This document shows, one piece after another, positions 598 to 31,881 of a stretch of DNA of 32,000 nt. The notes under the pieces are model-generated. The model had not been told where the DNA came from. It saw nothing but the letters and a program-made list of their open reading frames with translations, and ran no database searches. Position 1 is the first letter of the stretch, and each line of letters begins with the position of its first letter. Position numbers and translations under genes: made by a program. The stretch is from Methanothermus fervidus DSM 2088 (GTDB lineage: Archaea; Methanobacteriota; Methanobacteria; DSM-2088; Methanothermaceae), in contig CP002278.1 of the NCBI GenBank assembly GCA_000166095.1, positions 1,080,001 to 1,112,000 of the forward strand, in the 5' to 3' direction.

Positions 598-764
598 AGA
601 AGAGAGAGAGGTAAATTTCAAGTGTAATAGCTAGAGAGAATTGAGAGAGGTAGTTATAAGTTATAACTTATAAGTTATAAGTGAAATAGAGATAGACTTA
701 TTAAGTATGTTAAGACAAAACATTTTTATACTGTATCCTGCCTAAAAACAAAATAATCAGTTCG
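598..764 (+). promoter_or_regulatory. CRISPR leader / long-repeat-like element, copy A
   Basis: It directly abuts the first repeat at 765. It contains GTTATAAGTTATAACTTATAAGTTATAAG at 653-681. Positions 688-764 recur inverted at 2594-2667, and 598-717 recur inverted at 12008-12128. Confidence 0.65.
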
Positions 765-858
765 GTTTTAAAATAGACTAAATAGTATGGAAATACGAAA
801 TATTTACAACCATGTGCAAATGAAGCTGGTTTTAAGATAGACTAAATGGTATGGAAAT
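765..858 (+). CRISPR. Mini-array A: 2 repeats of 30 bp and 1 spacer of 34 bp
   Basis: Repeat 1 at 765-794 is GTTTTAAAATAGACTAAATAGTATGGAAAT. Repeat 2 at 829-858 is GTTTTAAGATAGACTAAATGGTATGGAAAT. The spacer at 795-828 is ACGAAATATTTACAACCATGTGCAAATGAAGCTG. Confidence 0.8.
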
Positions 859-12009: not shown

Positions 12010-12128
12010 TGTCTTACACGCTTATAAGTCTATCTCTATTTCACTTATAACTTATAAGTTATAACTTATAACTATCCCTTCCCTCAATTCTCTCTAGCTA
12101 TTACACTTGAAATTTACCCCTCTCTCTC
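12008..12128 (-). promoter_or_regulatory. Leader / long-repeat-like element, copy C (orphan)
   Basis: It is an inverted copy of 598-717, including CTTATAACTTATAAGTTATAACTTATAAC at 12044-12072 and ..CTAGCTATTACACTTGAAATTTACC.. The proximal leader part found at 721-764 is deleted. Confidence 0.65.
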
Positions 12129-13274: not shown

Positions 13275-13477
13275 CCCTAAAATAGTCTGATTATTTTTTC
13301 ATTTTTTATTTTTAGTATATATAAGTTTTCTTAATTTATAGAGTATTTTTTGAGAGAGAAAGAAGGAGTAAGAGAGAGTTTGTATATATTTTTTAAAACA
13401 AGTGTTATTTTTGTACTTCATCTATATAAATACTTTCCTATTTTTTTCATCCCTGATAGGGTGGAAACCTGTTTTTT
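13275..13477 (-). mobile_element. Left-end-only fragment (M2) of the tnpB element family
   Basis: Positions 13313-13474 align with 15640-15785 and 25575-25718 (..AGAACAAGTG.TA.TTTTGTACTTCATCTATATAAATAC..CCCTGATAGGGTGGAAAC). No right-end block is present. The left boundary is approximate. Confidence 0.55.
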
Positions 13478-14462: not shown

Positions 14463-14640
14463 TTGAGCTACCCCCTACGGAGCTTCCTGCTTCATAGAGA
14501 AAACTTGCCCAGAGACTATATCCTTACAGGAGATAGTTCTGAGTAGAGGTTTTCTCTCAGGCAGGCTATCAGGACTACCCCATTCCCTCAACAATATTCT
14601 ACACGCTGATATATAATCTCTTAGTTTATTCTTATAGGTT
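14463..14640 (-). ncRNA. Putative omega-RNA (reRNA) scaffold overlapping the tnpB 3' end
   Basis: By analogy with characterised TnpB systems. This roughly 180-nt block is what the deletion derivatives M3 and M4 retain. M1 retains a shorter, more diverged version that lacks the hairpin. The block ends with the hairpin GAGCUCCGUAGGGGGUAGCUC directly at the element end. There is no expression evidence. Confidence 0.4.
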
Positions 14641-15602
14641 AATCCTTTTGATGTTCCTCTTGGATTTACCTTCTTAACAATCTTACCGGCCCTTTCAGCC
14701 TTGTAAGATAGCATTTGAAGGAATTTACCCCAGGAAGCATCTAAAATACTTTTTGCAAGCTTATGATTTTTAACCATATTCTTTATAGTTAGATTCTCAA
14801 CACAAATCACGTCATAATTATCAACATAAAACCTACTTAGCTTATGTAGGAAGTCATCCCTTTGATTTCTTAACTTTTCATAACATCCTGCAAGTTTCTT
14901 TCTTTGCTTCTCATAGTTCTTAGAACCTTTCTTTTTCCTTGATAGTTTCCTCTGTTCAATTTTAATTCTCTCCAGGGTTTTTTCATAGAATCTTGGATTT
15001 TCTATTTGCCTTTCTTCACTGTCTGTTAGGAAATGCTTTATTCCAACATCAATTCCTATTGCTTTACCTGTTTTAGGCTTGGTTTCTTTTTCTTTCTCAA
15101 TACAAACTAAAGCAAACCATTTTCCAGATCTATAGCGTTTCACTATAATCTGTTTTATCTTCCCCTCAATTTCTCTGTTTATCCTAATTGGAATTTCTCC
15201 AATCTTTGATAGATATAGCCTATCTAGTCTTTTTCCAGTTTTTATTATCTTGAAACCAGATTGATTATAAATAAAAGATTTAAACCACTTTCCTTTATAC
15301 CGTAGTCTTCCGACCTTCTTACCATTTTTCTTAAGTTTGGCTAAAGCTTTTAAGTTGGAATGAAGCTGATAAAGCACAAGCTGTAAAACTTTTGCATATA
15401 CTTTCTTTAATTCAGTTTTTTCTTTCTTTAATTGAGTTAATCGCTTGCACATCTTATAATATGATATATACTCCTTAGAATTATTAATTTCACTTAGAAA
15501 ATAATTATAAACATGCCTACAAATCTCTAAAGTTTCCAATAGCTTGTCTTCCTGTTCTTTACTTGGATAAAGTCTGAACTTATATGCATAGATATGTGAC
15601 AT
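14475..15602 (-). CDS. tnpB: TnpB (OrfB) RNA-guided nuclease homolog, zinc-finger-less
   Basis: The start is YAYKFRLYPSKEQ. RuvC-I is IGIDVGIKHF, RuvC-II is VCVENL, and the RuvC-III region is LRDYISACRILL. The likely start is the ATG at 15600-15602, conserved in the MITE copies. The ORF track extends to 15617. Confidence 0.9.
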   Translation of the reverse strand: MSHIYAYKFRLYPSKEQEDKLLETLEICRHVYNYFLSEINNSKEYISYYKMCKRLTQLKKEKTELKKVYAKVLQLVLYQLHSNLKALAKLKKNGKKVGRLRYKGKWFKSFIYNQSGFKIIKTGKRLDRLYLSKIGEIPIRINREIEGKIKQIIVKRYRSGKWFALVCIEKEKETKPKTGKAIGIDVGIKHFLTDSEERQIENPRFYEKTLERIKIEQRKLSRKKKGSKNYEKQRKKLAGCYEKLRNQRDDFLHKLSRFYVDNYDVICVENLTIKNMVKNHKLAKSILDASWGKFLQMLSYKAERAGKIVKKVNPRGTSKGLTYKNKLRDYISACRILLREWGSPDSLPERKPLLRTISCKDIVSGQVFSMKQEAP

Positions 15603-15893
15603 GAAGAAAAGTAGCATGAGAGAGTATATATAGTTTTCTTTTTTCTAGGTATTTTTGGGGAGAGAAAGAAAGAGTAAGAGAAAGTTGTGTATATTTTTTT
15701 AGAACAAGTGCTAGTTTTGTACTTCATCTATATAAATACTTTTTCTGTTTTCTCTCAATCCCTGATAGAGTGGAAATCTGGTTTTTCACAAAATCAATTT
15801 CAATCTTCTTTTTATTTTTTTATTTTTTAAAAATTCTGTTTGTAAAAAATTCAAAAAAAATATAAATTTTAATAATTTATGATCAGGTATTTT

Positions 15894-15983: not shown

Positions 15984-16928
15984 ATGAAAACCATAAAAAT
16001 AAGTCCAATAAGATGGAAAGTTATGGAAATTTATTATTGGGGAAGTAGATCATTGTTTAAAATTTTATTCGTATTGATATTTTTCATCCTCTGCGGTTTA
16101 CGTGGTATAACTAGGAAAAAGCATATAACACCAGAAGATAAAGCTCTTGAATATTTTTTATTTAAAATAGTTTTTATTTTAGTAATCATTGTTTTCCTAA
16201 TTACGTTAGTAGGCTTTGTTATAGAAATAGATCCTAAGAGAAGGATTACTTATTCCAATCGCATTTCTTTCGCAGTATTCATAATAATGATATTTTCACT
16301 GGTAATGTTACTTATTTATAATTTCGTTTTACCTGCCTTGCTCTTCTCCATCTTTCTACTATTTTTACCACTCCTACACATCAAATTAGCCTCTGAACAT
16401 TTAAAGAAGAAAAGATACGTTATGTATGAAAATGCAGAAGGTGAGATAACAGATAAATATGTTGATTATCCTCTTAAAGCATTTTTTGAGGATCCTGAAG
16501 AATCATTGAGGAAAGTGAGAGAAGGAGCAGATGAAGATAAAAAGAAATTAAATAAAGATGAAAAAGGACTCCCAGAAAATACAGAACTTGGAGAGCTTAT
16601 TGATGGAGAAACCTTTAGTTTCCCTTTTATTGGTGGTCTTATGATTTTAATCAGTTTATCTACCATACTTGGCCTTGATAAATTATTTAAATCTATTGGT
16701 GGTTTTGGTTTTGTAGCGAGGCTTGTTTTAATGTTTATTTTTATTTTTATACTACCATATCTCCTGTCTTCTTATTATGAAAAGAAAGCTAAGGCATACC
16801 GTCATGATCTCAGGGAAGAATATCTAGTTATAAACAGAGATAAGAAGATCATAAAGATCTATGATAGCAAGGAGGAATTCTTAGGGGATGGATATAAGGT
16901 GAGAGAGTTGGAGGACACCTCCTCATGA
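15984..16928 (+). CDS. Polytopic membrane protein, paralog 1 of an uncharacterised family (MKTIKISPIRWKVM..)
   Basis: 314 aa with several hydrophobic helices, an acidic soluble insert and a C-terminal YLVINRDKKIIKIYDSKEEFLGDGY. It is homologous over its full length to 24440..25312, and the first 42 nt are identical. Confidence 0.7.
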   Translation: MKTIKISPIRWKVMEIYYWGSRSLFKILFVLIFFILCGLRGITRKKHITPEDKALEYFLFKIVFILVIIVFLITLVGFVIEIDPKRRITYSNRISFAVFIIMIFSLVMLLIYNFVLPALLFSIFLLFLPLLHIKLASEHLKKKRYVMYENAEGEITDKYVDYPLKAFFEDPEESLRKVREGADEDKKKLNKDEKGLPENTELGELIDGETFSFPFIGGLMILISLSTILGLDKLFKSIGGFGFVARLVLMFIFIFILPYLLSSYYEKKAKAYRHDLREEYLVINRDKKIIKIYDSKEEFLGDGYKVRELEDTSS

Positions 16929-16946
16929 AAACCATAAAAATAAGTC
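16870..16946 (+). repeat. Gene-end/gene-start junction repeat J2
   Basis: AGGAGGAATTCTTAGGGGATGGATATAAGGTGAGAGAGTTGGAGGACACCTCCTCATGAAAACCATAAAAATAAGTC recurs at 24384-24460. The trailing ATGAAAACCATAAAAATAAGTC is an orphan start of a third family member (MKTIKISLILHLL*). Confidence 0.75.
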
Positions 16947-17010
16947 TAATTTTACATCTCCTTTGACTTTAACAAAAAAATTTTAATTTTTAATTTATAT
17001 AATTTTTATT

Positions 17011-17997: not shown

Positions 17998-18004
17998 ATT
18001 TTTC

Positions 18005-18078
18005 CACTTATAACTTATAAGTTATAACTTATAACTACTTTCCTAATTTTAGCTGTTACACTTGAAATTTACCTCTCT
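18005..18078 (-). promoter_or_regulatory. Leader / long-repeat-like element, copy D (partial, orphan)
   Basis: CTTATAACTTATAAGTTATAACTTATAAC at 18007-18035 is followed by ..GCTGTTACACTTGAAATTTACCTCTC, matching copy C 12044-12125. No repeat or proximal leader is present. Confidence 0.55.
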
Positions 18079-18498: not shown

Positions 18499-18547
18499 AT
18501 AGAGGTAATAACAAAATATTGTCATATAATTATTAAAGGTGCTATCA

Positions 18548-19252
18548 ATGCTCTTTGAAATAATATCAGATTCAATAAGATATCCATTTTCGAGATTTAC
18601 AAGGACAATATTTCTTGGGATATTGTATATTTTATCAATACTTATAATTCCACTTTTTGTTGGACTAGGGTATTGCATTAGGGTCATTAAAGTTTCGATA
18701 GAAGGTGAAGAAACACTCCCACCTTTTGATAATTGGGGAGAATTACTATTAAAGGGATTAAAATTGTTCATAATGGATTTATGTTATTTTATAATACCAA
18801 TAATTTTAATAGTTTATGGATGTGTTTCAACAGTTATGACATTAATAAATCAAAATCCTTATTTAGCAACAATGCCTGGAGCACAGTTGTACATCCGTTC
18901 TTTAATACTTAAAAATCCTACTGTTATATTAGGAATGATGTTAATACCTATTATTGGCATTTTTGAAAAAATGGGGCGCGCTAATCTAGCGTACTATGGC
19001 AGTCTTGGAGCTGCTTTTAATTTTAGTGAGATATTTAATATTATATCTGAAATTGGATGGGGTAGTTATTTAGCCTGGTATGTTGTTGTTCTTATTGTAC
19101 AGATTTTCTTGTATTTATTTTCATTATTTTTATTACAAATACCAGTTATTGGGTCTATAATTTCTTCTATTATTGTCATGCCTATACTACTATTATTTGA
19201 TGCTCGTGCTATAGCCTTAAGATATGTTTACAGACATGTTGATGAAGAGTAA
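18548..19252 (+). CDS. DUF4013-like multi-pass membrane protein
   Basis: The N-terminal FEIISDSIRYPF, then GYCIRVIKVSIEGEETLPPFDNWGELLLKGLK, and several TM helices fit DUF4013 as I remember it. Confidence 0.55.
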   Translation: MLFEIISDSIRYPFSRFTRTIFLGILYILSILIIPLFVGLGYCIRVIKVSIEGEETLPPFDNWGELLLKGLKLFIMDLCYFIIPIILIVYGCVSTVMTLINQNPYLATMPGAQLYIRSLILKNPTVILGMMLIPIIGIFEKMGRANLAYYGSLGAAFNFSEIFNIISEIGWGSYLAWYVVVLIVQIFLYLFSLFLLQIPVIGSIISSIIVMPILLLFDARAIALRYVYRHVDEE

Positions 19253-19310
19253 TGTATATATAATAGTAGTGAATAATTGAGAATAATAATAAGACAAGAA
19301 GAGGTATTAT
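19253..19310 (+). promoter_or_regulatory. Promoter/5'-UTR block, second copy (see 15894-15950)
   Basis: TGTATATATAATAGTAGTGAATAATTGAGAATAATAATAAGACAAGAAGAGGTATTAT runs directly into the ATG at 19309. Confidence 0.5.
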
Positions 19311-22300
19311 GGTTCCAAAGATTTTAAGAACCATAATACCTTTAATACTTTTTCTAATTTTGATTTCCCCTAGTTTTGCGAATTTAAATGTTTCTATAAA
19401 CTTAACAGCTAACAAAAATTCGACTTATTTTAAAGATAACATCAAATACACTATTTATATTAAAAACAATGGTTCTGAAGTTATAAAAAATTTAACAGCT
19501 GATTTATCTGGTCTTGGAATAGATAGTAAAAGTTTTAATGCAAGTATAACAAAAGGAAACATAGGTATTCTTGATCAATACACTCCTGAATGGAAGATTG
19601 GTGATTTAAATCCAGGTGAAACTGTAGCTGCAAATATAGAAGGGATTGTTGATTTTATTGGAGAATATAATGCTACAGTAGCAGTTACAAATGATTATAA
19701 TAATTATATAGAAAGTGAGCCTCTCTTAATAGTTTCAAAACCTGTTAATGTAGATTTATCAATTTCACTTATTCCAAATTCAACTTGTGTGCATTGGGGA
19801 GATTATATTAAAATATTAGTTAAAGTCAGAAATAATGGTCCTGATGATGCCGATAAAGTTTTAGCAATGTTAGTTACATATCCAGATTATGTGGGTTTAG
19901 GCATAAATGCAACCGCTGGAAACGCTGGAAAATTTTATGATGATTTTACGCTGCGATGGTATGTATATGTGTGGGATGTTGGTCGCGTAAAATCAAATGA
20001 AGAAAAAGTAGCAGAAGTTACTATTAAAGCTGTTAATTTCAATGAAGATCAAATTATAAGTAATTTCACTGTTATTGGCTATGTTTACATAGATGATGGT
20101 GGTATTATATACCTTTCCCCTGGGAAGAGTTATTGAATGATGAAGATGTAACTTCTATACTTCAGGAGGATTATGAGTCAGGATATTATAATGACTGTAT
20201 GGATAGGAACTTGATTAACAATTATGATAAGTTTAAAGTTACAATTTTAGAACCTGAGAAAGTAATTCCATTAACAGAGGAAGAAAAGAATATTAAGAGA
20301 AGTTATGAATGGTCTCAAGGTTTTAGTTGTCCATCTTTCATTCTTGGTGGTTTGGCAACAGCTTATAGACCAGATTTACTTTGGTATCCTGTACCCACAT
20401 ATGGATCTAATAATACGACAGTATTGGTAGCAACAGAATTACCTACAGATATAGAAACAAGCACAGGATCACCTAATGAATTAATAGATAAATTATTAGA
20501 GAATGCTCCGGAGATTCCATATATTCCATTAAATACAGAAATAATAATTGTGAGTAATTTTTCAGTAGTTCCAACATCTGGAAATGCTCCTCTAAAAAAT
20601 AAATGTGTCATGTTGTGTAAGTAATCATGGAAATAAAGAGGGAATTTATAGGGCTGAACTAAAAATAAATAATAATGTTGTTGATGTAAAAGAAGTTAAA
20701 GTCGGAGCAGGTGAATGCAAAAATATAACCTTCATATATACTTTAGATAAGCCAGGAACATATAATGTAACCATTGGAAACTTTCCAGAAATTAAAGTTA
20801 AGGTTGAGATTCCTCAAAAGGGGCGATTGTCTGTACCAATACTTCCACAAATTCCAGAGAACACAATAATATTAAATCCTATTTCTATCCAGCCTTCTAT
20901 TCAGGATAAGGAATTAGGAACCTACAACGTTACAATAGGAAACTTAACACCAGTTACAGTAACTGTAACAACGCCAGCAAGCTTCACACTAAGCAACTTA
21001 ACAGTCACTCCAACATCTGGAGTTGCACCACTAACAATAACTGCAACAGCAAAAGTTACAAACACTGGAGGAACAGCTGGAAACTACACAGCAGTACTCT
21101 ACATTAATGGTTCAGCAGTTGCAAATCAAACAGTAACACTAGGTCCGGGAGAGACAACAACTGTAAGCCTATCTTACACCTTAACACAAGCTGGAACCTA
21201 CAACGTTACAATAGGAAACTTAACACCAGTTACAGTGAATGTAACAACACCAGTTGTACCAACGCCAACTCCTGTAGTCCAGAATAAGACATTCTCAATA
21301 ATATTAAGAAATACAGGAACATCAACAATAACATTCAAATACTACATATCAGTTTACACAAATCCAGTTAATGGAACTAAAGTATACTACAAGGAATTAA
21401 CAATAACTCTAAAGCCAAATGAAACAAAAACAATAGAGTTAGGTAAATATCCTGAAATATATGCTGTAAGTACAACGATACTTATTGATAATAAGAGAAT
21501 AAAAAAATTGATTTTGGAGCTTAAATATTGTATTGAAGGATTAAATCCACAAACAATAATTTTAAATAAGAATGCCAAGTCAGGATTCAAATATGTTTCT
21601 AGATTTACAGGTAGAAATGGATATGTTGATTCTTGGTTTAATGAAATTTACTTTAGAAATATAAACCGGCAGATGGGTTACTATAATTATACAGTAGAAG
21701 AAATACCTGCAGATAAAGCGTTGTTAGAGTTAATACCAATCATTGGAACAAATATTTGTAATAGTGTTGTGATTGCCCCAAAAACTGTTATGTTTGACAT
21801 TGTTAATCCATCTAATTATATTTTAAATTTAAGAATAAAAATTAAGCCAGAATCCGTTAATAGTAAAAATACACGTAGAATAAAAAGTAAAAATACAATA
21901 ACAGGATCACTAGATACTTCTAAAACACTTTTATTTGATGATCTTACCTTAAATCCAGGACAGAGAATTGTTGGTAAGTTCTATGTTAAAGAGCCTGGAA
22001 TTTATAAAATAATGTTAGAAAGACTTTGTTATAAGAACACAAAAACAAAAGAAAAGGTAAGTTATAATATACCAAATGCATACCAATGGGTCGGAACAAT
22101 AATAGGAATTAAAAATCCAACTGACCAATTCATTGTTCAATCAAACGCTGAAAAATATTTAAATATTTCATTATCATCTAATATTGAAGATATAATAAGA
22201 GAAAAATTATTAAATGATACATTTAAAGTCCCACTAGATTCTGATTATAAATATGTGGGAGTTACTGTAATCGCCCCTGTATTTTATGCTAATTTATCTT

Positions 22301-24399
22301 CTCCTATATTATTCAGTGTGGGAGTAGTATCTTTTGTGATTAATGGTAAATTAGTCCCTATAGCTGTGTTATTTAACAATGACACAGCTTCACAACTTAC
22401 TGTTTTCATTAACACTACTAAGGATATCAAAATTATAAATAATATATTGTGTAAAACATATCATGCACTAATTGATCTGCTTCCAGATTATTTAAATAAT
22501 TATTACAAAATATATGACACTATTCATACTATCAGTACAAATGATGATGAGGAAAGGTTATTGGAATCTATAATTTCTTCCATGCTAGGCAAGTTTCTAT
22601 TTATTACAATGGAAGTTGATGAACCTGTGAAGATTTATCATTTTACTGAATATGGACTTACTAATCCATTCAGCCAGGATGAGGAGAATCATATAACTAT
22701 TATACCAGCAATATTTTGTAATGGTTGTTACCAAAATCTTAATATTTCTTTCATAGGTCCAGCAGTTACAAATCATATTTATTCAAATGAACAACAAAAT
22801 ATTACAATCATAACAGTTGAAAACTATGGATCTAAATTTATATTATCTTATAGTAAAGACCAAAAGTGTTATATTTATAAAACTAAAGATGGTAAGATAT
22901 GTAAATTAAAAACAAATAAGTATTTAGGTGATAAAATAGAATTAAGATTGGAAGAAGTACTTGAAGATTCAGGATATTGTGCTGCCATGACTTATACTAT
23001 TGTTAAAGAAAAAGTTAAAGATGACATATTGAAAAAACATATAGAATACTATGAAAAAAATTATAAGTATAAGGGTTTATACGGTCCCCTCATGGCATGT
23101 TACGGACAATTTCTAGAGGGTTTGTGCTTTTTCTATTGTCATGATTATAGAGCAGAAGAAATTGCTAAAGATGTTAATGTCACTTGGACAAGAGTAAAAC
23201 CAGCTGTAGTACTTTCGTGTGATATTCCTGGACACATCTCATCCTTTACTTTGGCATCAGATCATAATCTTGGCATTGAGGCCAAAGGAGATTTTGATAA
23301 TATTAGAAGATTTAATGCTGCAAGAACTGGAATTATTAATTACCTTGAAGTGTTAATACATAGTTCCTTATTTGACATAAACATAACAGAACAAGAAGCA
23401 CCTATCATTAATGTTCCAAGAGCAATTTTTGATGAAAGTTCCACTACTTACATTTATACTGATAATAATACGTTTGCAATTATAACAGACTCCTATAACT
23501 ATACAGACTTCTATTATAATGCAATTATAACAGACTTCTATACAGACTTCTACTTCGATTATAAATATCAAAGTTTTGTAGTGTTTGATAATCAAACAGG
23601 TATTATCAGAGACTTGTTAAAAAAACTAATAATAAGACATTGTGGATCATATTGTTTCTATTTCCAACAAGCAATGTTAGCATATGATCTTGCAAAAGAG
23701 CTTACAAATACAAGTTCAAAGATAAGAAAAATAATAGATGACGTAGGTCATAGAACAAAATTAATAACAATTTGTGAACCAAAGTTTTGGGCAGAAATCG
23801 CCTGTGGTATTTTAATTCAAATAGGCGCTGGCGTAAGTTTTGCAAATCCTCTTGTAGGTGTAGGGTTAATAGTTGCAGGAGTACTTGCCGATGCTGCATT
23901 AAAGGAACCTTGGAAAGATCCAGAAAGTGCCACTTATTGGCTCTTAGATTTAATATTATCAGTAATTCCGACAGGAAAGCTTGGTCAAATCGCAAAGACT
24001 TTGAAGTTATCGGGGGTTGTAGAAAGAATAACGTACTATACTTCTTATGGTCTTACTGTCGATGTTCTTAAGTATAAACTAGAGAATGAGGGAATCAAAG
24101 TCTATTTGGGAATAATTGATAGAAATTTAGAAGAAAAAGAAGTACCACAATTTATAAAAGATTTAAACTCAATGTTCAAATCAGAAGGAGTTGAAGTTAT
24201 ATCAGTTCTACATCTAAAATTTGAAAAAAAAGTAGGATTTATTGCCACAAGTTGGAAACCTTGGGCTGAAAATATAGGAATATCTGTTGTGGAGGCATAT
24301 CTTGAACCATATCTTGAACCATATGTTGGACCACCAGTTTGTAAGGTGTGGAGAATATTTTACAAAACTCTTAAGTCTTTATTAGGAGGGAATTCTTAG
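19309..24399 (+). pseudogene. Giant secreted CARDB/DUF11-repeat surface protein (about 1700 aa) interrupted by two homopolymer frameshifts (ORFs 19309..20136, 20133..20624, 20605..24399)
   Basis: It starts with signal peptide MVPKILRTIIPLILFLILISPSFA. Ig-like repeats follow (..YTIYIKNNGSEV.., ..VKVRNNGPDDA.., ..[29 protein letters not shown]..). A repeat unit is continuous across the A6 run 20594-20599 ([11 protein letters not shown] / [15 protein letters not shown]). The a/b junction is readable across C4 at 20117-20120 (..IIYLSP / WEELLNDEDV..). About 800 aa are unassigned. The C-terminus has a glycine-rich hydrophobic segment. Confidence 0.7.
20917..21236 (+). repeat. Exact 44-bp direct repeat (20917-20960 and 21193-21236) marking tandem duplicated Ig-like domain units
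   Basis: GGAACCTACAACGTTACAATAGGAAACTTAACACCAGTTACAGT occurs twice, 276 bp (92 codons) apart, and encodes [15 protein letters not shown]. Confidence 0.9.
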
Positions 24400-24481
24400 G
24401 GGATGGATATAAGGTGAAAGAGTTGGAGGACACCTCCTCATGAAAACCATAAAAATAAGTCCAATAAGATGGAAAGTTATG
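24384..24481 (+). repeat. Gene-end/gene-start junction repeat J3
   Basis: AGGAGGGAATTCTTAGGGGATGGATATAAGGTGAAAGAGTTGGAGGACACCTCCTCATGAAAACCATAAAAATAAGTCCAATAAGATGGAAAGTTATG. The 5' part matches 16870-16946 with one extra G. The 3' part matches 15982-16025 exactly. Confidence 0.75.
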
Positions 24482-25312
24482 AGATTTTATTCTAATAAAG
24501 TTAGTAAAATAGTTTCAAAAATTTTGTTTGTATTGTTATTATTTATTATAGGTTCTTTACGTCCTAGCCATAGATATTTTATGCCCATGAAAGAAATAAT
24601 TACAACATTAATTTTATTTATATTTGTAGGAATTATCCTAGTAATTTTTTTACTACCTAGCATTATTCTAGAGATAGATCCTAAAGAAAGGGCAAAGGAT
24701 ATACTTTTTACAATTTTGATCATACAATTGATGCTGGTTATTTTAGGATTAATATTTCAAATTACTGCGTTTATATTTATACTAATGGTGTCTCCAATCT
24801 TAGTTCTCATCTATATATATCAAAAATGCAAAGAGAAAGTATATGTTGTTTATGAAGATTCAGAGGGAAAAGAGATAGATAGGTATATATTTAATCTATA
24901 TACCTGTTATGATCGTGTAGACATTCCACTCTTTTCAAGTTATAGTATTTCAGATTTTATGGGGCGTGTTGTTGTGATACAATTTTTAATTTATTTTATG
25001 TTAGTGACTTTCCTCTGTTTTGCTATACTTCGTGTATTGGAGGCTAAATATGGTTTGGGAGCATGTGCAGCTCTATTGATTTTAATTGCAGTAGTTGTTT
25101 TTGCTCTTCCATTTTATTTTTATGTCTCAGGTATAGAAAAAAATAGTGAGAGGGCCACAATAAAGAAATACTTAGTTATAAACATGGATAAAAGGACAAT
25201 AAAAATTTATAATGATAAAGAAGAATTTTTAAGGGATAGATATGGAATGAAACGCCCTAAAAAAAGATATGAATTTATTTTTCCATTGGACTTTTTGAGC
25301 TACCTCCTATAG
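24440..25312 (+). CDS. Polytopic membrane protein, paralog 2 of the MKTIKISPIRWKVM family
   Basis: 290 aa. It shares the islands KILFVL, EIDPK, YVVYEDSEGKEIDRY and YLVINMDKRTIKIYNDKEEFL with paralog 1. The last five codons and the stop (LSYLL*) come from the M3 element end. Confidence 0.7.
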   Translation: MKTIKISPIRWKVMRFYSNKVSKIVSKILFVLLLFIIGSLRPSHRYFMPMKEIITTLILFIFVGIILVIFLLPSIILEIDPKERAKDILFTILIIQLMLVILGLIFQITAFIFILMVSPILVLIYIYQKCKEKVYVVYEDSEGKEIDRYIFNLYTCYDRVDIPLFSSYSISDFMGRVVVIQFLIYFMLVTFLCFAILRVLEAKYGLGACAALLILIAVVVFALPFYFYVSGIEKNSERATIKKYLVINMDKRTIKIYNDKEEFLRDRYGMKRPKKRYEFIFPLDFLSYLL

Positions 25313-25718
25313 AGCTTCTAACTTCATCAAAAAAGTATAATCCTAAGTAGAGTATTCTCCTAAATAGGCAATCAGAGCTACTCCACTCTTCAACAATACT
25401 CTACATATAGACTTATTCTTTGGAAAATAATTATAAAAAAATAATTATAAACATGCCTACAAATCTCTAAACTTTCCAATAGCTTATTTTTTGTTTTTAC
25501 TTGGATAAAGTCTGGATTTATATGCATAGATACATGGCATGAAAAAAGTAATGGATTAATATTATAGTTTTATTAATTTATAGAGTATTTTTTTGAGAGA
25601 GAGAAAGAAGGAGTAGAAAAGAGAGTTGTGTATATTTTTTAGAACAAGTGCTAGTTTTGTACTTCATCTATATATAAATACTTTTCCTATTTTTTCATGC
25701 CTGATAGAGTGGAAATCT
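25295..25718 (-). mobile_element. MITE-like internal-deletion derivative (M3) of the tnpB element
   Basis: It has a TTGAGCTAC.. right-end block, then about 120 nt of the tnpB 5' region (..ATAATTATAAACATGCCTACAAATCTCTAAACTTTCC..), the conserved CAT start, and the left-end block up to ..GATAGAGTGGAAATCT. Confidence 0.75.
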
Positions 25719-25751
25719 CTTTCCCTTTATAAAGTAGAAATTCCGAATAAT

Positions 25752-31441: not shown

Positions 31442-31881
31442 TTGAGCTACTCCCTACGGAGCTTCCTGCTTCATAGAGAAAACTTGCCCAAACTATATCC
31501 CTACAGGAGATAGTTTTGAGTAGAGTATTCTTTTAAACAGGCTATCAGGGCTACCCCATACTCTCAACAGTATTCTATATATTCTACATGCTGATATATA
31601 ATCCCTTAGTTTATTCTTACATGTTAGAAAATAATTATAAACATGCCTACAAATCTCTAAACTTTCCAATAGCTTATTTTTTGTTTTTTACTTGGATAAA
31701 GTCTGGATTTATATAAGTATATTCATGAAAAAAGTAATGGATAATATATAGTTTTCCTTTAGGAATTATTGCGTTGGAGAAAGAAAGAGTAGAAAAGAGA
31801 GTTTGTATATTTTTTAGAACAAGTGTTAGTTTTGTACTTCATCTATATAAATACTTTTCCTATTTTTTCATCCCTGATAGA
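31442..31881 (-). mobile_element. MITE-like internal-deletion derivative (M4) of the tnpB element
   Basis: The right-end block 31442-31620 is nearly identical to 14463-14640. It is followed by the tnpB 5' remnant and the left-end block, truncated at ..CCCTGATAGA. Confidence 0.75.

What the first reader, a model, noticed from the sequence alone, without database searches (positions are those of the whole stretch)
19309..25312. Possible archaeal polymorphic-toxin-like locus: giant secreted repeat protein with a membrane-active-looking C-terminus followed by a polytopic membrane paralog
The protein has several parts in order. A signal peptide is followed by at least five CARDB/DUF11-like Ig domains and then about 800 aa I cannot assign. 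Next comes a glycine-rich hydrophobic stretch ([39 protein letters not shown]). After that comes [22 protein letters not shown], which loosely recalls the TG motif of bacterial pre-toxin domains; this is a weak recollection and needs an HMM check. The protein ends with a roughly 170-aa tail with no motif I recognise. The next gene (24440..25312) is a multi-pass membrane protein coupled through the junction repeat. A second paralog (15984..16928) sits behind a copy of the same promoter block but has no giant gene. That arrangement is what is expected for toxin plus cognate immunity plus orphan immunity. Polymorphic-toxin-like loci have been predicted computationally in archaea but are essentially uncharacterised. 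The giant gene is frameshifted twice, so it may be inactive here while the putative immunity genes persist.
Basis: inference. Interest (0 to 1): 0.7.

Follow-up and report, generated by a model that had tools for sequence, protein, structure and literature searches.

The report
Decayed archaeal polymorphic-toxin-like surface protein locus
A broken giant surface-protein gene of the hot-spring methanogen Methanothermus fervidus belongs to a previously unannotated family in its order, in which a constant domain is followed by swappable C-terminal modules paired with a matching downstream gene, as in bacterial contact-dependent toxin/immunity systems.

Summary
The window is Methanothermus fervidus DSM 2088. 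The observation largely holds. One ~1,696-codon gene (19309-24399) is split by two single-base frameshifts. Both recur in independent read assemblies, so they are real.

The gene encodes a signal peptide, about five DUF11/CARDB Ig-like domains and a ~445-aa orphan stretch. It ends in a two-helix glycine-rich hydrophobic hairpin, a conserved motif and a 139-aa unique tail.

The main new result is a ~260-aa conserved "core" domain just before the hairpin. It is absent from Pfam and NCBIfam and has no PDB match. An exhaustive search found 86 relatives, and 53 Methanobacterium/Methanobrevibacter loci were fetched.

In those loci the core sits 280-450 aa from the C-terminus of giant adhesin-like proteins. 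Identity between close relatives collapses abruptly after it, for example from 100% to 42%. The next gene co-varies with tail type, and truncated orphan core-plus-tail cassettes follow. That is polymorphic-toxin architecture.

Several things remain unsupported:
- PT-TG homology: the HMM search is negative.
- Any toxin fold.
- Mfer_1153 as cognate immunity: it and Mfer_1146 are unique to this genome and unrelated to the family's partner proteins.

The "junction repeat" is an 83-bp duplication flanking 7.4 kb, a rearrangement scar rather than a coupling device. Toxicity is inferred, not shown.

The parts
19309..20112 (+). Giant gene, segment 1 (frame 1): signal-like N-terminus plus two DUF11 Ig-like domains
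20094..20136 (+). Interval containing frameshift 1 (one base missing relative to an intact frame; frame 1 to frame 0)
   Evidence: same ORF split in independent assemblies
20115..20597 (+). Giant gene, segment 2 (frame 0): end of DUF11 domain 2, linker, start of CARDB-like domain 3
   Evidence: internal repeat 20553-20598 / 20992-21037
20594..20599 (+). Frameshift 2: A6 run with one extra A (frame 0 to frame 1)
20599..21621 (+). Giant gene, segment 3, Ig-like part (CARDB-like domains 3-4 and a fifth Ig-like domain). It is 73% identical to the C-terminus of Mfer_1076.
21622..22956 (+). ~445-aa region with no relative outside this genome
   Evidence: (only self fragments such as P0036)
22957..23739 (+). 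Conserved ~260-aa 'core' (pre-C-terminal) domain of the family. It is absent from Pfam and NCBIfam. The AF2 model is confident (about pLDDT 90 over much of the first ~180 residues) and has no PDB match.
23785..23901 (+). Small-residue-rich hydrophobic helix-turn-helix (predicted membrane hairpin)
23902..23979 (+). Conserved post-hairpin motif [12 protein letters not shown]...SVIPTGK. The family consensus is acidic patch, then W/F, then S-x-IP.
   Evidence: not PT-TG by HMM
23980..24399 (+). Unique 139-aa tail plus stop. The last codons and the stop lie inside the junction repeat.
24383..24465 (+). Junction repeat, copy 2: 3' end of a Mfer_1146-type gene fused to the 5' start of Mfer_1153
24440..25312 (+). 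Mfer_1153, a six-TM membrane protein and candidate partner/immunity. Its last 6 codons come from an IS-derived MITE.
15984..16928 (+). Mfer_1146, a six-TM paralog (31% identity) and candidate orphan partner
16868..16950 (+). Junction repeat, copy 1: 3' end of Mfer_1146 plus a 26-nt remnant start of a further paralog (16925-16950)
14463..15790 (-). IS200/605-type TnpB element next to Mfer_1146
25295..25730 (-). Internally deleted (MITE-like) copy of the same element, overlapping the 3' end of Mfer_1153

Best explanation
The locus is a decayed member of an order-wide Methanobacteriales family of giant secreted adhesin-like surface proteins built like bacterial polymorphic toxins.

Shown in relatives:
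- A constant ~260-aa core domain marks where exchangeable C-terminal modules begin.
- Each module is paired with its own downstream gene.
- Spare truncated core-plus-module-plus-partner cassettes lie further downstream.

Shown in M. fervidus:
- The C-terminal module is of the membrane-hairpin class: two small-residue-rich hydrophobic helices, an acidic/aromatic interface motif and a unique 139-aa end.

Inferred mechanism:
- The stalk presents the module at the cell surface.
- The hairpin inserts into a neighbouring cell's membrane from outside and dissipates its ion gradient, as TspA or TelE of Gram-positive bacteria do.
- A polytopic membrane partner in the producer binds the hairpin and neutralises it.

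State of the M. fervidus copy:
- The delivery gene is dead (two real frameshifts).
- Its 3' end abuts an 83-bp duplication.
- Two intact six-TM paralogs (Mfer_1153 downstream, Mfer_1146 8 kb upstream) persist as candidate retained immunity genes.
For: FAMILY MEMBERSHIP
- phmmer E-values reach 1e-23 against 1.84e9 proteins, with 86 non-self hits.
- The hits carry PMBR, PKD, beta-helix and Big_1 domains and signal peptides.

ARCHITECTURE
- In 53 loci the core lies 280-450 aa from the C-terminus.
- At least 20 loci carry same-strand truncated core ORFs downstream.

POLYMORPHISM WITH SHARP BREAKPOINTS
- L008 vs L009: core 100%, tail 42%, partner 41%.
- L022 gene vs its orphan: core 98%, dropping to 58% overall in the tail, with no similarity beyond the breakpoint.
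- L048 vs L040: 80% then 21%, with a TPR versus a 6-TM partner.

DOWNSTREAM GENES
- 50 of 53 distinct C-terminal modules have a same-strand gene immediately downstream: 28 with >=2 TM and 16 TPR-like.
- Hairpin tails pair with one 5-6-TM family (8/12 vs 1/40, Fisher p=5e-6).

M. FERVIDUS COPY
- Its tail scores highest against a hairpin-module HMM built without it: 13.0 bits, versus 10.0 for the best of 1000 shuffles.
- Mfer_1153 starts 41 nt after the giant gene's stop and has six TM segments.
- Its only relative among 5.8e9 proteins is Mfer_1146.
- The frameshifts are real.

FUNCTIONAL ANALOGUE
- TspA is neutralised by membrane-bound TsaI, and strings of TsaI homologues follow tspA (PMC10941976).
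Against: - No toxin activity is shown for any family member.
- No tail matches a known toxin or pre-toxin domain.
- Mfer_1153/1146 are not homologous to the partner family seen with hairpin tails or to anything in the 53 loci.
- Their adjacency to the giant gene runs through a rearrangement junction.
- No orphan C-terminal fragment accompanies Mfer_1146.
- A hairpin could simply be a C-terminal membrane anchor, as the ALP literature assumes (PMC11532034).
- How a module would cross the pseudomurein wall of a target cell is unknown.
- The hairpin HMM score is weak.
- The tail-type and partner-type classes behind the p=5e-6 table come from hand-written regular expressions written after reading the sequences, so that test is indicative only.
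Confidence: 0.5

Rival explanations
1. It is a non-toxic kin- or partner-recognition system. The variable C-terminal module and its co-varying membrane or TPR partner form a matching identity pair, comparable in logic to Proteus IdsD/IdsE or the proposed VARTIG module of Thermococcales. The pair sets adhesion or fusion specificity rather than killing.
For: The cassette polymorphism and partner co-variation are the same as for the toxin reading. No toxin fold was detected. The carriers are adhesin-like proteins. VARTIG was proposed with similar alternatives (PMC8416519).
Against: Orphan cassette arrays and retention of partner genes beside a dead carrier gene are more typical of toxin/immunity systems. 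Cytoplasmic TPR partners are hard to reconcile with surface recognition.
Confidence: 0.2
2. In M. fervidus it is an ordinary adhesin-like pseudogene. Its hairpin was a C-terminal membrane anchor. Mfer_1153 and Mfer_1146 are an unrelated lineage-specific membrane-protein pair brought next to it by recombination and IS activity, so there is no functional link.
For: - An 83-bp direct repeat flanks the 7.4-kb segment carrying the rSAM, DHNA and DUF4013 genes and the giant gene.
- The giant gene's stop lies in that repeat.
- A TnpB element and a MITE abut both paralogs.
- The paralogs are not homologous to the family's partner proteins.
- The ALP literature reads C-terminal TM helices as anchors.
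Against: The only two copies of the membrane family in 5.8e9 proteins both lie within 9 kb of the only core-domain gene in the window. Position, strand, size and six-TM topology mimic the partners of hairpin tails in relatives. The anchor idea does not explain cassette polymorphism in the family.
Confidence: 0.2
3. The gene is functional through two compensating programmed frameshifts or phase variation, and the locus is an active system.
For: The two shifts compensate (-1 then +1, 470 nt apart). The second lies in a homopolymer (A6).
Against: Neither site has a canonical slippery heptamer in the right register (by inspection). The runs are short for contingency loci. All independent assemblies show the same state.
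Confidence: 0.05

Closest known systems
Bacterial polymorphic toxin systems (CdiA-CT/CdiI, Rhs, LXG; Zhang et al. 2012, PMC3482391)
   Same: A giant secreted repeat protein. A constant region followed by sharply variable C-terminal modules. A cognate gene immediately downstream that co-varies. Arrays of truncated orphan cassettes that keep a piece of the constant region.
   Different: No homologous part was found: no VENN, PT-TG, PT-HINT or Rhs core, and no known toxin or immunity domain. The carrier is an archaeal Sec-type adhesin-like protein in organisms with a pseudomurein wall. Toxicity is untested.
TspA/TsaI and TelE of Gram-positive type VII secretion (PMC10941976)
   Same: The C-terminal module has hydrophobic, glycine-zipper-like helices proposed to act on the membrane from outside. 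Immunity is a membrane protein thought to bind those helices. Immunity paralogs occur in multiple copies near the toxin gene.
   Different: There is no LXG domain and no T7SS. There is no sequence similarity. Mfer_1153/1146 are not DUF443 proteins.
Adhesin-like proteins (ALPs) of Methanobacteriales (PMC11532034; bioRxiv 10.64898/2026.08.03.742440)
   Same: Same organisms and the same N-terminal building blocks (Ig-like, beta-helix, PMBR). The relatives found here are such proteins.
   Different: The two ALP papers read here do not mention toxin or immunity, and the one searched for it (PMC11532034) has no hit for a conserved region. C-terminal TM helices are read there as anchors.
VARTIG module of Thermococcales (PMC8416519)
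   Same: An archaeal large Ig-domain surface protein with a hypervariable C-terminal part and variable downstream genes. The organisation is noted as similar to polymorphic toxin systems.
   Different: In VARTIG the variable part is an Ig domain, and that paper reports no counterparts outside Thermococcales. Here the variable part is a set of non-Ig modules after a distinct core domain.
Pre-toxin TG domain (PF14449)
   Same: Position between the carrier and the variable end. A short conserved loop-like motif containing TG/IP-G residues.
   Different: No HMM match for the M. fervidus tail or for ten family tails. PT-TG's most conserved Gly/Asp/Arg 15-residue signature (PMC13483458) is not evident by eye in the motif.

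Membership tests
Polymorphic toxin system (organisation, sensu Zhang et al. 2012) | Large secreted multi-domain carrier protein | tested here: met
   Signal-like N-terminus and DUF11/CARDB domains. Relatives have signal peptides and PMBR, PKD and beta-helix domains.
Polymorphic toxin system (organisation, sensu Zhang et al. 2012) | Conserved body with a sharply variable C-terminal module among close relatives | tested here: met
   Met in the family: core 80-100% identical with tails 21-58% and abrupt breakpoints. It cannot be tested within Methanothermus because only one genome exists.
Polymorphic toxin system (organisation, sensu Zhang et al. 2012) | Immediately downstream gene that co-varies with the C-terminal module | tested here: met
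   50 of 53 modules have a same-strand downstream gene. Tail class and partner class are associated, p=5e-6 on crude motif classes. For M. fervidus itself only position is shown.
Polymorphic toxin system (organisation, sensu Zhang et al. 2012) | Orphan module/immunity cassettes downstream | tested here: met
   At least 20 of the 53 related loci have them. The M. fervidus window has no orphan module, only a paralogous membrane gene.
Polymorphic toxin system (organisation, sensu Zhang et al. 2012) | C-terminal module is a toxin neutralised by the downstream protein | not testable with these tools
   No known toxin domain by Pfam, PDB sequence, PADLOC or PHROGs searches. Expression experiments are needed.
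Pre-toxin TG domain (PF14449) | Match to the Pfam model | tested here: not met
   No hit at E<=10 for the last 339 or 219 aa. No hit at E<=1 for ten family tails.
Core-domain C-terminal-cassette family of Methanobacteriales (defined here) | ~260-aa core domain with motifs (M)KAAYGTFL, HD..AD, NVTW.R, S..E, D..TG..RD and G.YC, placed before the C-terminal module | tested here: met
   phmmer E down to 1e-23. Core HMM positions 6-241 match ORF aa 788-1058. Invariant W, R, E and C residues are present.
Hairpin-class C-terminal module | Two small-residue-rich hydrophobic helices followed by an acidic patch, W/F and S-x-IP | tested here: inconclusive
   The HMM built without M. fervidus scores it 13.0 bits, rank 1 of 1001. 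Alignment is collinear. The score is weak.
5-6-TM partner family of hairpin-class modules | Motifs SYQG, R-x-K-x-F-S-D, GY-x-P and FPD..N..P.DLR..KG | tested here: not met
   hhalign of Mfer_1153+1146 against 10 members gives probability 1%. phmmer finds no hit in any locus.
Adhesin-like proteins of Methanobacteriales | Large secreted protein with Ig-like and/or beta-helix repeats in a Methanobacteriales genome | tested here: met

The most novel reading that the evidence does not exclude
A subset of the enigmatic, massively expanded adhesin-like proteins of Methanobacteriales, including gut and rumen Methanobrevibacter, are contact-dependent delivery vehicles. They would carry a home-grown archaeal repertoire of exchangeable effector modules (membrane-hairpin, helical, Ig-like and other classes). 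Each module would have its own immunity family (polytopic membrane or TPR proteins). All would be organised around a new pre-effector domain with no bacterial homolog. This would be an independently evolved archaeal counterpart of CDI/Rhs systems.
Probability: 0.4. Interest if true: 0.85.

Novelty: new variant of a known kind. Interest (0 to 1): 0.65.

Why it matters
Experimentally characterised inter-archaeal antagonism systems are very few, and archaeal polymorphic toxin systems were described in 2021 as predicted but not yet characterised (PMC8416519). Adhesin-like proteins are the largest unexplained gene family in gut and rumen methanogens and are usually read as adhesins only.

The constant domain defined here, together with cassette-like tails, co-varying partners and orphan arrays, gives a concrete and testable hypothesis for what part of that family does. 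It also points to cultured strains that carry the family: Methanobacterium sp. MBAC-LM and Methanobrevibacter curvatus DSM 11111 have uninterrupted copies, whereas the copy in Methanobacterium sp. MZD130B is split into several short ORFs. The core motif provides a simple search handle.

For M. fervidus itself the locus is a fossil, informative mainly as the deepest-branching member that places the family at the level of the order.

Tried and rejected
- Pfam, NCBIfam, PADLOC and PHROGs scans of every part gave only DUF11/CARDB hits for the stalk.
- The PT-TG idea was rejected by the HMM search.
- The word-indexed homolog search with ORF3 found only Ig-repeat relatives. With the family profile it was swamped and returned 3 hits.
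- Foldseek of the core model against PDB gave no match at E<=0.001; the best E was 0.16. PDB sequence and profile searches were empty.
- The AF2 model of Mfer_1153 was too weak to use for fold search (pLDDT 56).
- hhalign of Mfer_1153/1146 against the partner family was negative.
- The Logan contigs turned out to be the same strain, differing only by indels, so no second allele is available.
- The viral collection holds no relative.
- Rfam and tRNA scans found nothing.
- Makarova et al. 2019 (mBio e00715-19), the paper most likely to have touched this family, is not in the held library. Prior description could therefore not be excluded.
- The 7.4-kb segment as a mobile element was considered and left open. 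It carries housekeeping-type genes (DHNA, radical SAM).
- Programmed frameshifting was judged unlikely.
Full report
IDENTITY AND OBSERVATION

The 24440-25312 product is 100% identical to Mfer_1153 of Methanothermus fervidus DSM 2088, and 15984-16928 is Mfer_1146. These two are the only members of their family among 5.8 billion clustered proteins. M. fervidus belongs to the Methanothermaceae, order Methanobacteriales. The window has about 30% G+C.

The "giant gene" is three collinear ORFs: 19309-20136, 20133-20624 and 20605-24399. The frame changes from 1 to 0 somewhere in 20094-20136. It returns to 1 at the A6 run 20594-20599, where removing one A restores ...[13 protein letters not shown]... 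in register with the next CARDB-type repeat. Two single-base corrections give an uninterrupted 1,696-codon frame.

The 275-aa and 163-aa ORFs are called identically in Logan assemblies from three unrelated run series: SRR072735, SRR8649345-49 and ERR97657xx. The frameshifts are therefore real features of the strain and not sequencing errors. The 1,264-aa ORF itself is absent from the protein collection.

DOMAIN ANATOMY

- The N-terminus is hydrophobic and signal-like.
- DUF11 x2 and CARDB x1 score above Pfam cut-offs. A further CARDB is just below, and a fifth Ig-like unit is weak.
- ORF3 aa 103-344 is 73% identical to the C-terminal 250 aa of the paralogous surface protein Mfer_1076, including a 78-aa identical run. 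Mfer_1076 ends exactly where the giant's unassigned part begins.
- An exhaustive HMMER search with ORF3 aa 340-1264 returned 88 proteins. Two are fragments of the same gene. The other 86 all align to ORF3 aa ~785-1045, a few as far as aa 1170.
- The ~445 aa before that region has no relative anywhere.

A CONSERVED CORE DOMAIN AND ITS FAMILY

The shared ~260-aa region has these motifs: (M)KAAYGTFL, HD..AD, NVTW.R, S..E, D..TG..RD and G.YC, with invariant W, R, E and C. It is not in Pfam-A (2025) or NCBIfam r20.

With a 31-sequence alignment, AlphaFold2 models much of its first ~180 residues at pLDDT around 90, as an alpha/beta domain. Foldseek finds no PDB match at E<=0.001; the best E is 0.16. 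A profile search of PDB sequences is empty.

The proteins that carry it have pseudomurein-binding repeats, PKD, Big_1 and right-handed beta-helix domains and signal peptides. They are the "adhesin-like proteins" of Methanobacteriales.

A pattern scan of GTDB representative genomes gave 53 loci in Methanobacterium and Methanobrevibacter, often five per genome. In these the core consistently lies 280-450 aa from the C-terminus of proteins of 600-2,700 aa. No relative was found in IMG/VR.

POLYMORPHIC-CASSETTE ORGANISATION IN THE FAMILY

Four observations are all direct.

1. Variable tails. The sequence after the core falls into at least six unrelated classes:
   - a membrane hairpin plus acidic/W/IP motif;
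   - helical modules ending in a TM segment;
   - a DHYxPxEYW class;
   - an Ig-like WDGxG/DIT class;
   - others.

2. Abrupt breakpoints between close relatives.
   - L008 vs L009 are 100% identical through the core, up to the first helix of the hairpin. The tail is then 42% identical and the next gene 41%.
   - The L022 gene and its own downstream orphan are 98-100% identical up to ...RQVLGNAFP and unrelated after it.
   - L005_9104 vs L020 go from 89% to 36%.
   - L048 vs L040 go from 80% to 21%, and the downstream gene switches from a TPR protein to a 6-TM protein.

3. Co-varying downstream genes.
   - 50 of 53 distinct modules are followed at once, on the same strand, by a gene.
   - 28 of those genes have >=2 predicted TM segments and 16 are TPR-like.
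   - Hairpin tails pair with one conserved 5-6-TM family (8 of 12, against 1 of 40 others; Fisher p=5e-6). That family has motifs SYQG, RxKxFSD, GYxP and FPDxxN..DLRxxKG.
   - Helical tails pair with TPR proteins, and Ig-like tails with ~119-aa 4-TM proteins.
   - The motif classes are crude, so the table is indicative.

4. Orphan arrays.
   - A core HMM finds 95 ORFs in these loci.
   - At least 20 loci carry additional same-strand ORFs that begin inside the core, at HMM positions from 5 to 171.
   - These ORFs carry other tails and are followed by their own partner genes.
   - Identical arrays occur in independent assemblies (L004 and L018).

This is the organisation that defines bacterial polymorphic toxin loci, as summarised in PMC3482391. 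None of the tails or TM partners matches any Pfam family, PT-TG included.

THE M. FERVIDUS COPY IN THAT FRAME

After the core and a short linker comes [39 protein letters not shown]. This is followed by [26 protein letters not shown], and then by 139 aa with no relative.

The hairpin and motif align collinearly with hairpin-class tails, for example YYADDLNKGW...FxFDVGxSxIP and GLxKDPTNPYNWLDFG. An HMM of that module built from 12 other sequences ranks the M. fervidus tail first among itself plus 1,000 shuffles, at 13.0 against 10.0 bits. This is supportive but weak.

It also lacks, by eye, the Gly/Asp/Arg signature reported for PT-TG (PMC13483458).

Mfer_1153 starts 41 nt after the giant gene's stop. 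It has six predicted TM segments arranged 2+2+loop+2, as does Mfer_1146. That resembles the partner family of hairpin tails in size and layout. There is no detectable homology, however: hhalign probability is 1% and no locus gives a phmmer hit.

The AF2 model of Mfer_1153 is poor, with mean pLDDT 56, and its fold search is meaningless.

THE JUNCTION REPEAT

Positions 16868-16950 and 24383-24465 are about 97% identical. Copy 1 is the 3' end of Mfer_1146 (...[17 protein letters not shown]) overlapping an ATG, followed by 26 nt of a further paralog start and then unrelated sequence. Copy 2 is the same 3'-end sequence, out of frame, followed by the real start of Mfer_1153.

The giant ORF reads into copy 2 and stops 14 nt inside it (...LLGGNS*). 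The ancestral state was therefore a head-to-tail pair of paralogs with overlapping stop and start.

The two copies now flank a 7.4-kb segment carrying a radical-SAM gene, dihydroneopterin aldolase, a DUF4013 membrane protein and the giant gene. This is a recombination scar, not a translational-coupling device.

The history is unresolved. One option is Campbell-type insertion of the segment. Another is duplication of the pair followed by reciprocal deletions. Because the M. fervidus tail is as long as its relatives' tails, at most a few terminal codons were lost.

The first 53 coding nt of the two paralogs are 94% identical although the proteins are only 31% identical. This suggests gene conversion at the ends.

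A TnpB (IS200/605-type) element at 14463-15790 lies 194 nt upstream of Mfer_1146. An internally deleted copy at 25295-25730 supplies the last six codons of Mfer_1153.

INTERPRETATION

Shown:
- family membership;
- cassette polymorphism with partner co-variation and orphan arrays in the family;
- pseudogenisation and rearrangement in M. fervidus.

Inferred:
- the modules are effectors delivered to neighbouring cells;
- hairpin-class modules act on the membrane;
- polytopic partners neutralise them in the membrane, by analogy with TspA/TsaI and TelE (PMC10941976);
- Mfer_1153 and Mfer_1146 are retained immunity genes.

The main alternatives are a non-toxic recognition system, and, for this genome, a fortuitous adjacency created by rearrangement.

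LITERATURE

The two ALP papers read here do not mention toxin or immunity, and the one searched for it has no hit for a conserved region; that paper treats C-terminal TM helices as anchors. The VARTIG paper states that archaeal polymorphic toxin systems are predicted but uncharacterised, and reports no VARTIG counterparts outside Thermococcales.

Full-text searches combining polymorphic toxin with Methanobrevibacter, Methanobacterium or pseudomurein found nothing relevant. Makarova et al. 2019 could not be read. A prior computational mention of this family cannot be excluded, which tempers the novelty rating.

VERDICT

It is wrong in three details: PT-TG, the promoter block, and coupling by the repeat. 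The M. fervidus locus itself is a fossil. Its value is that it led to an unannotated, order-wide system resembling polymorphic toxins on methanogen adhesin-like proteins.

Noticed in passing
window 14463-15790, 25295-25730, 31442-31880, 241-561, 13356-13459: One full IS200/605-type TnpB element, plus at least two internally deleted MITE-like copies and further end fragments, all within 32 kb. The copies at 14463-15790 and 25295-25730 have the same orientation and bracket the whole Mfer_1146 to Mfer_1153 region.
   Followed up: partly
window 601-701, 12024-12127, 18002-18049: A ~100-nt intergenic repeat with a TTATAAGTTATAACTTATAAG core, 88-96% identical between copies, in both orientations. 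One copy sits between the radical-SAM and dihydroneopterin aldolase genes.
   Followed up: no
window 702-794 and 2564-2656: A 93-nt inverted repeat, 97% complementary, flanking 1.77 kb that holds three short ORFs.
   Followed up: no
window 20911-21636 versus Mfer_1076 (P0001): The Ig-like part of the giant gene shares a 250-aa block with the C-terminus of another M. fervidus surface protein. The block is 73% identical and includes a 78-aa identical run. That protein ends exactly where the giant's unassigned region starts, which suggests recent exchange between surface-protein genes.
   Followed up: partly
window 18539-19252; L043 8940-9938; L031 8981-9698: A DUF4013 membrane protein lies directly upstream of the giant gene. 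DUF4013 homologs also lie downstream of family genes in two Methanobacterium loci. This may be chance.
   Followed up: partly
window 24440-25312 (Mfer_1153 model): The three soluble segments conserved between the two membrane paralogs are aa 2-5, 133-152 and 241-257. They are the best-predicted parts (pLDDT 72-80) and are all beta strands, so they may form one small sheet domain on one face of the membrane.
   Followed up: no
L005 to L056 (many hits start at M[KR]AAYGTFL): At least 19 of the 86 family hits are stand-alone ORFs that begin exactly at the conserved Met of the core motif. The same Met is conserved inside full-length genes. This is compatible with orphan cassettes or with internal initiation.
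   Followed up: no
L007, L012, L013, L016, L020, L030, L042, L052: Several family loci sit on short contigs binned into bacterial MAGs (Phycisphaerales, Anaerolineales, Atribacter, Bacteroidota, Bipolaricaulota). They are near-identical to Methanobacterium loci, so they are probably mis-binned archaeal contigs.
   Followed up: no
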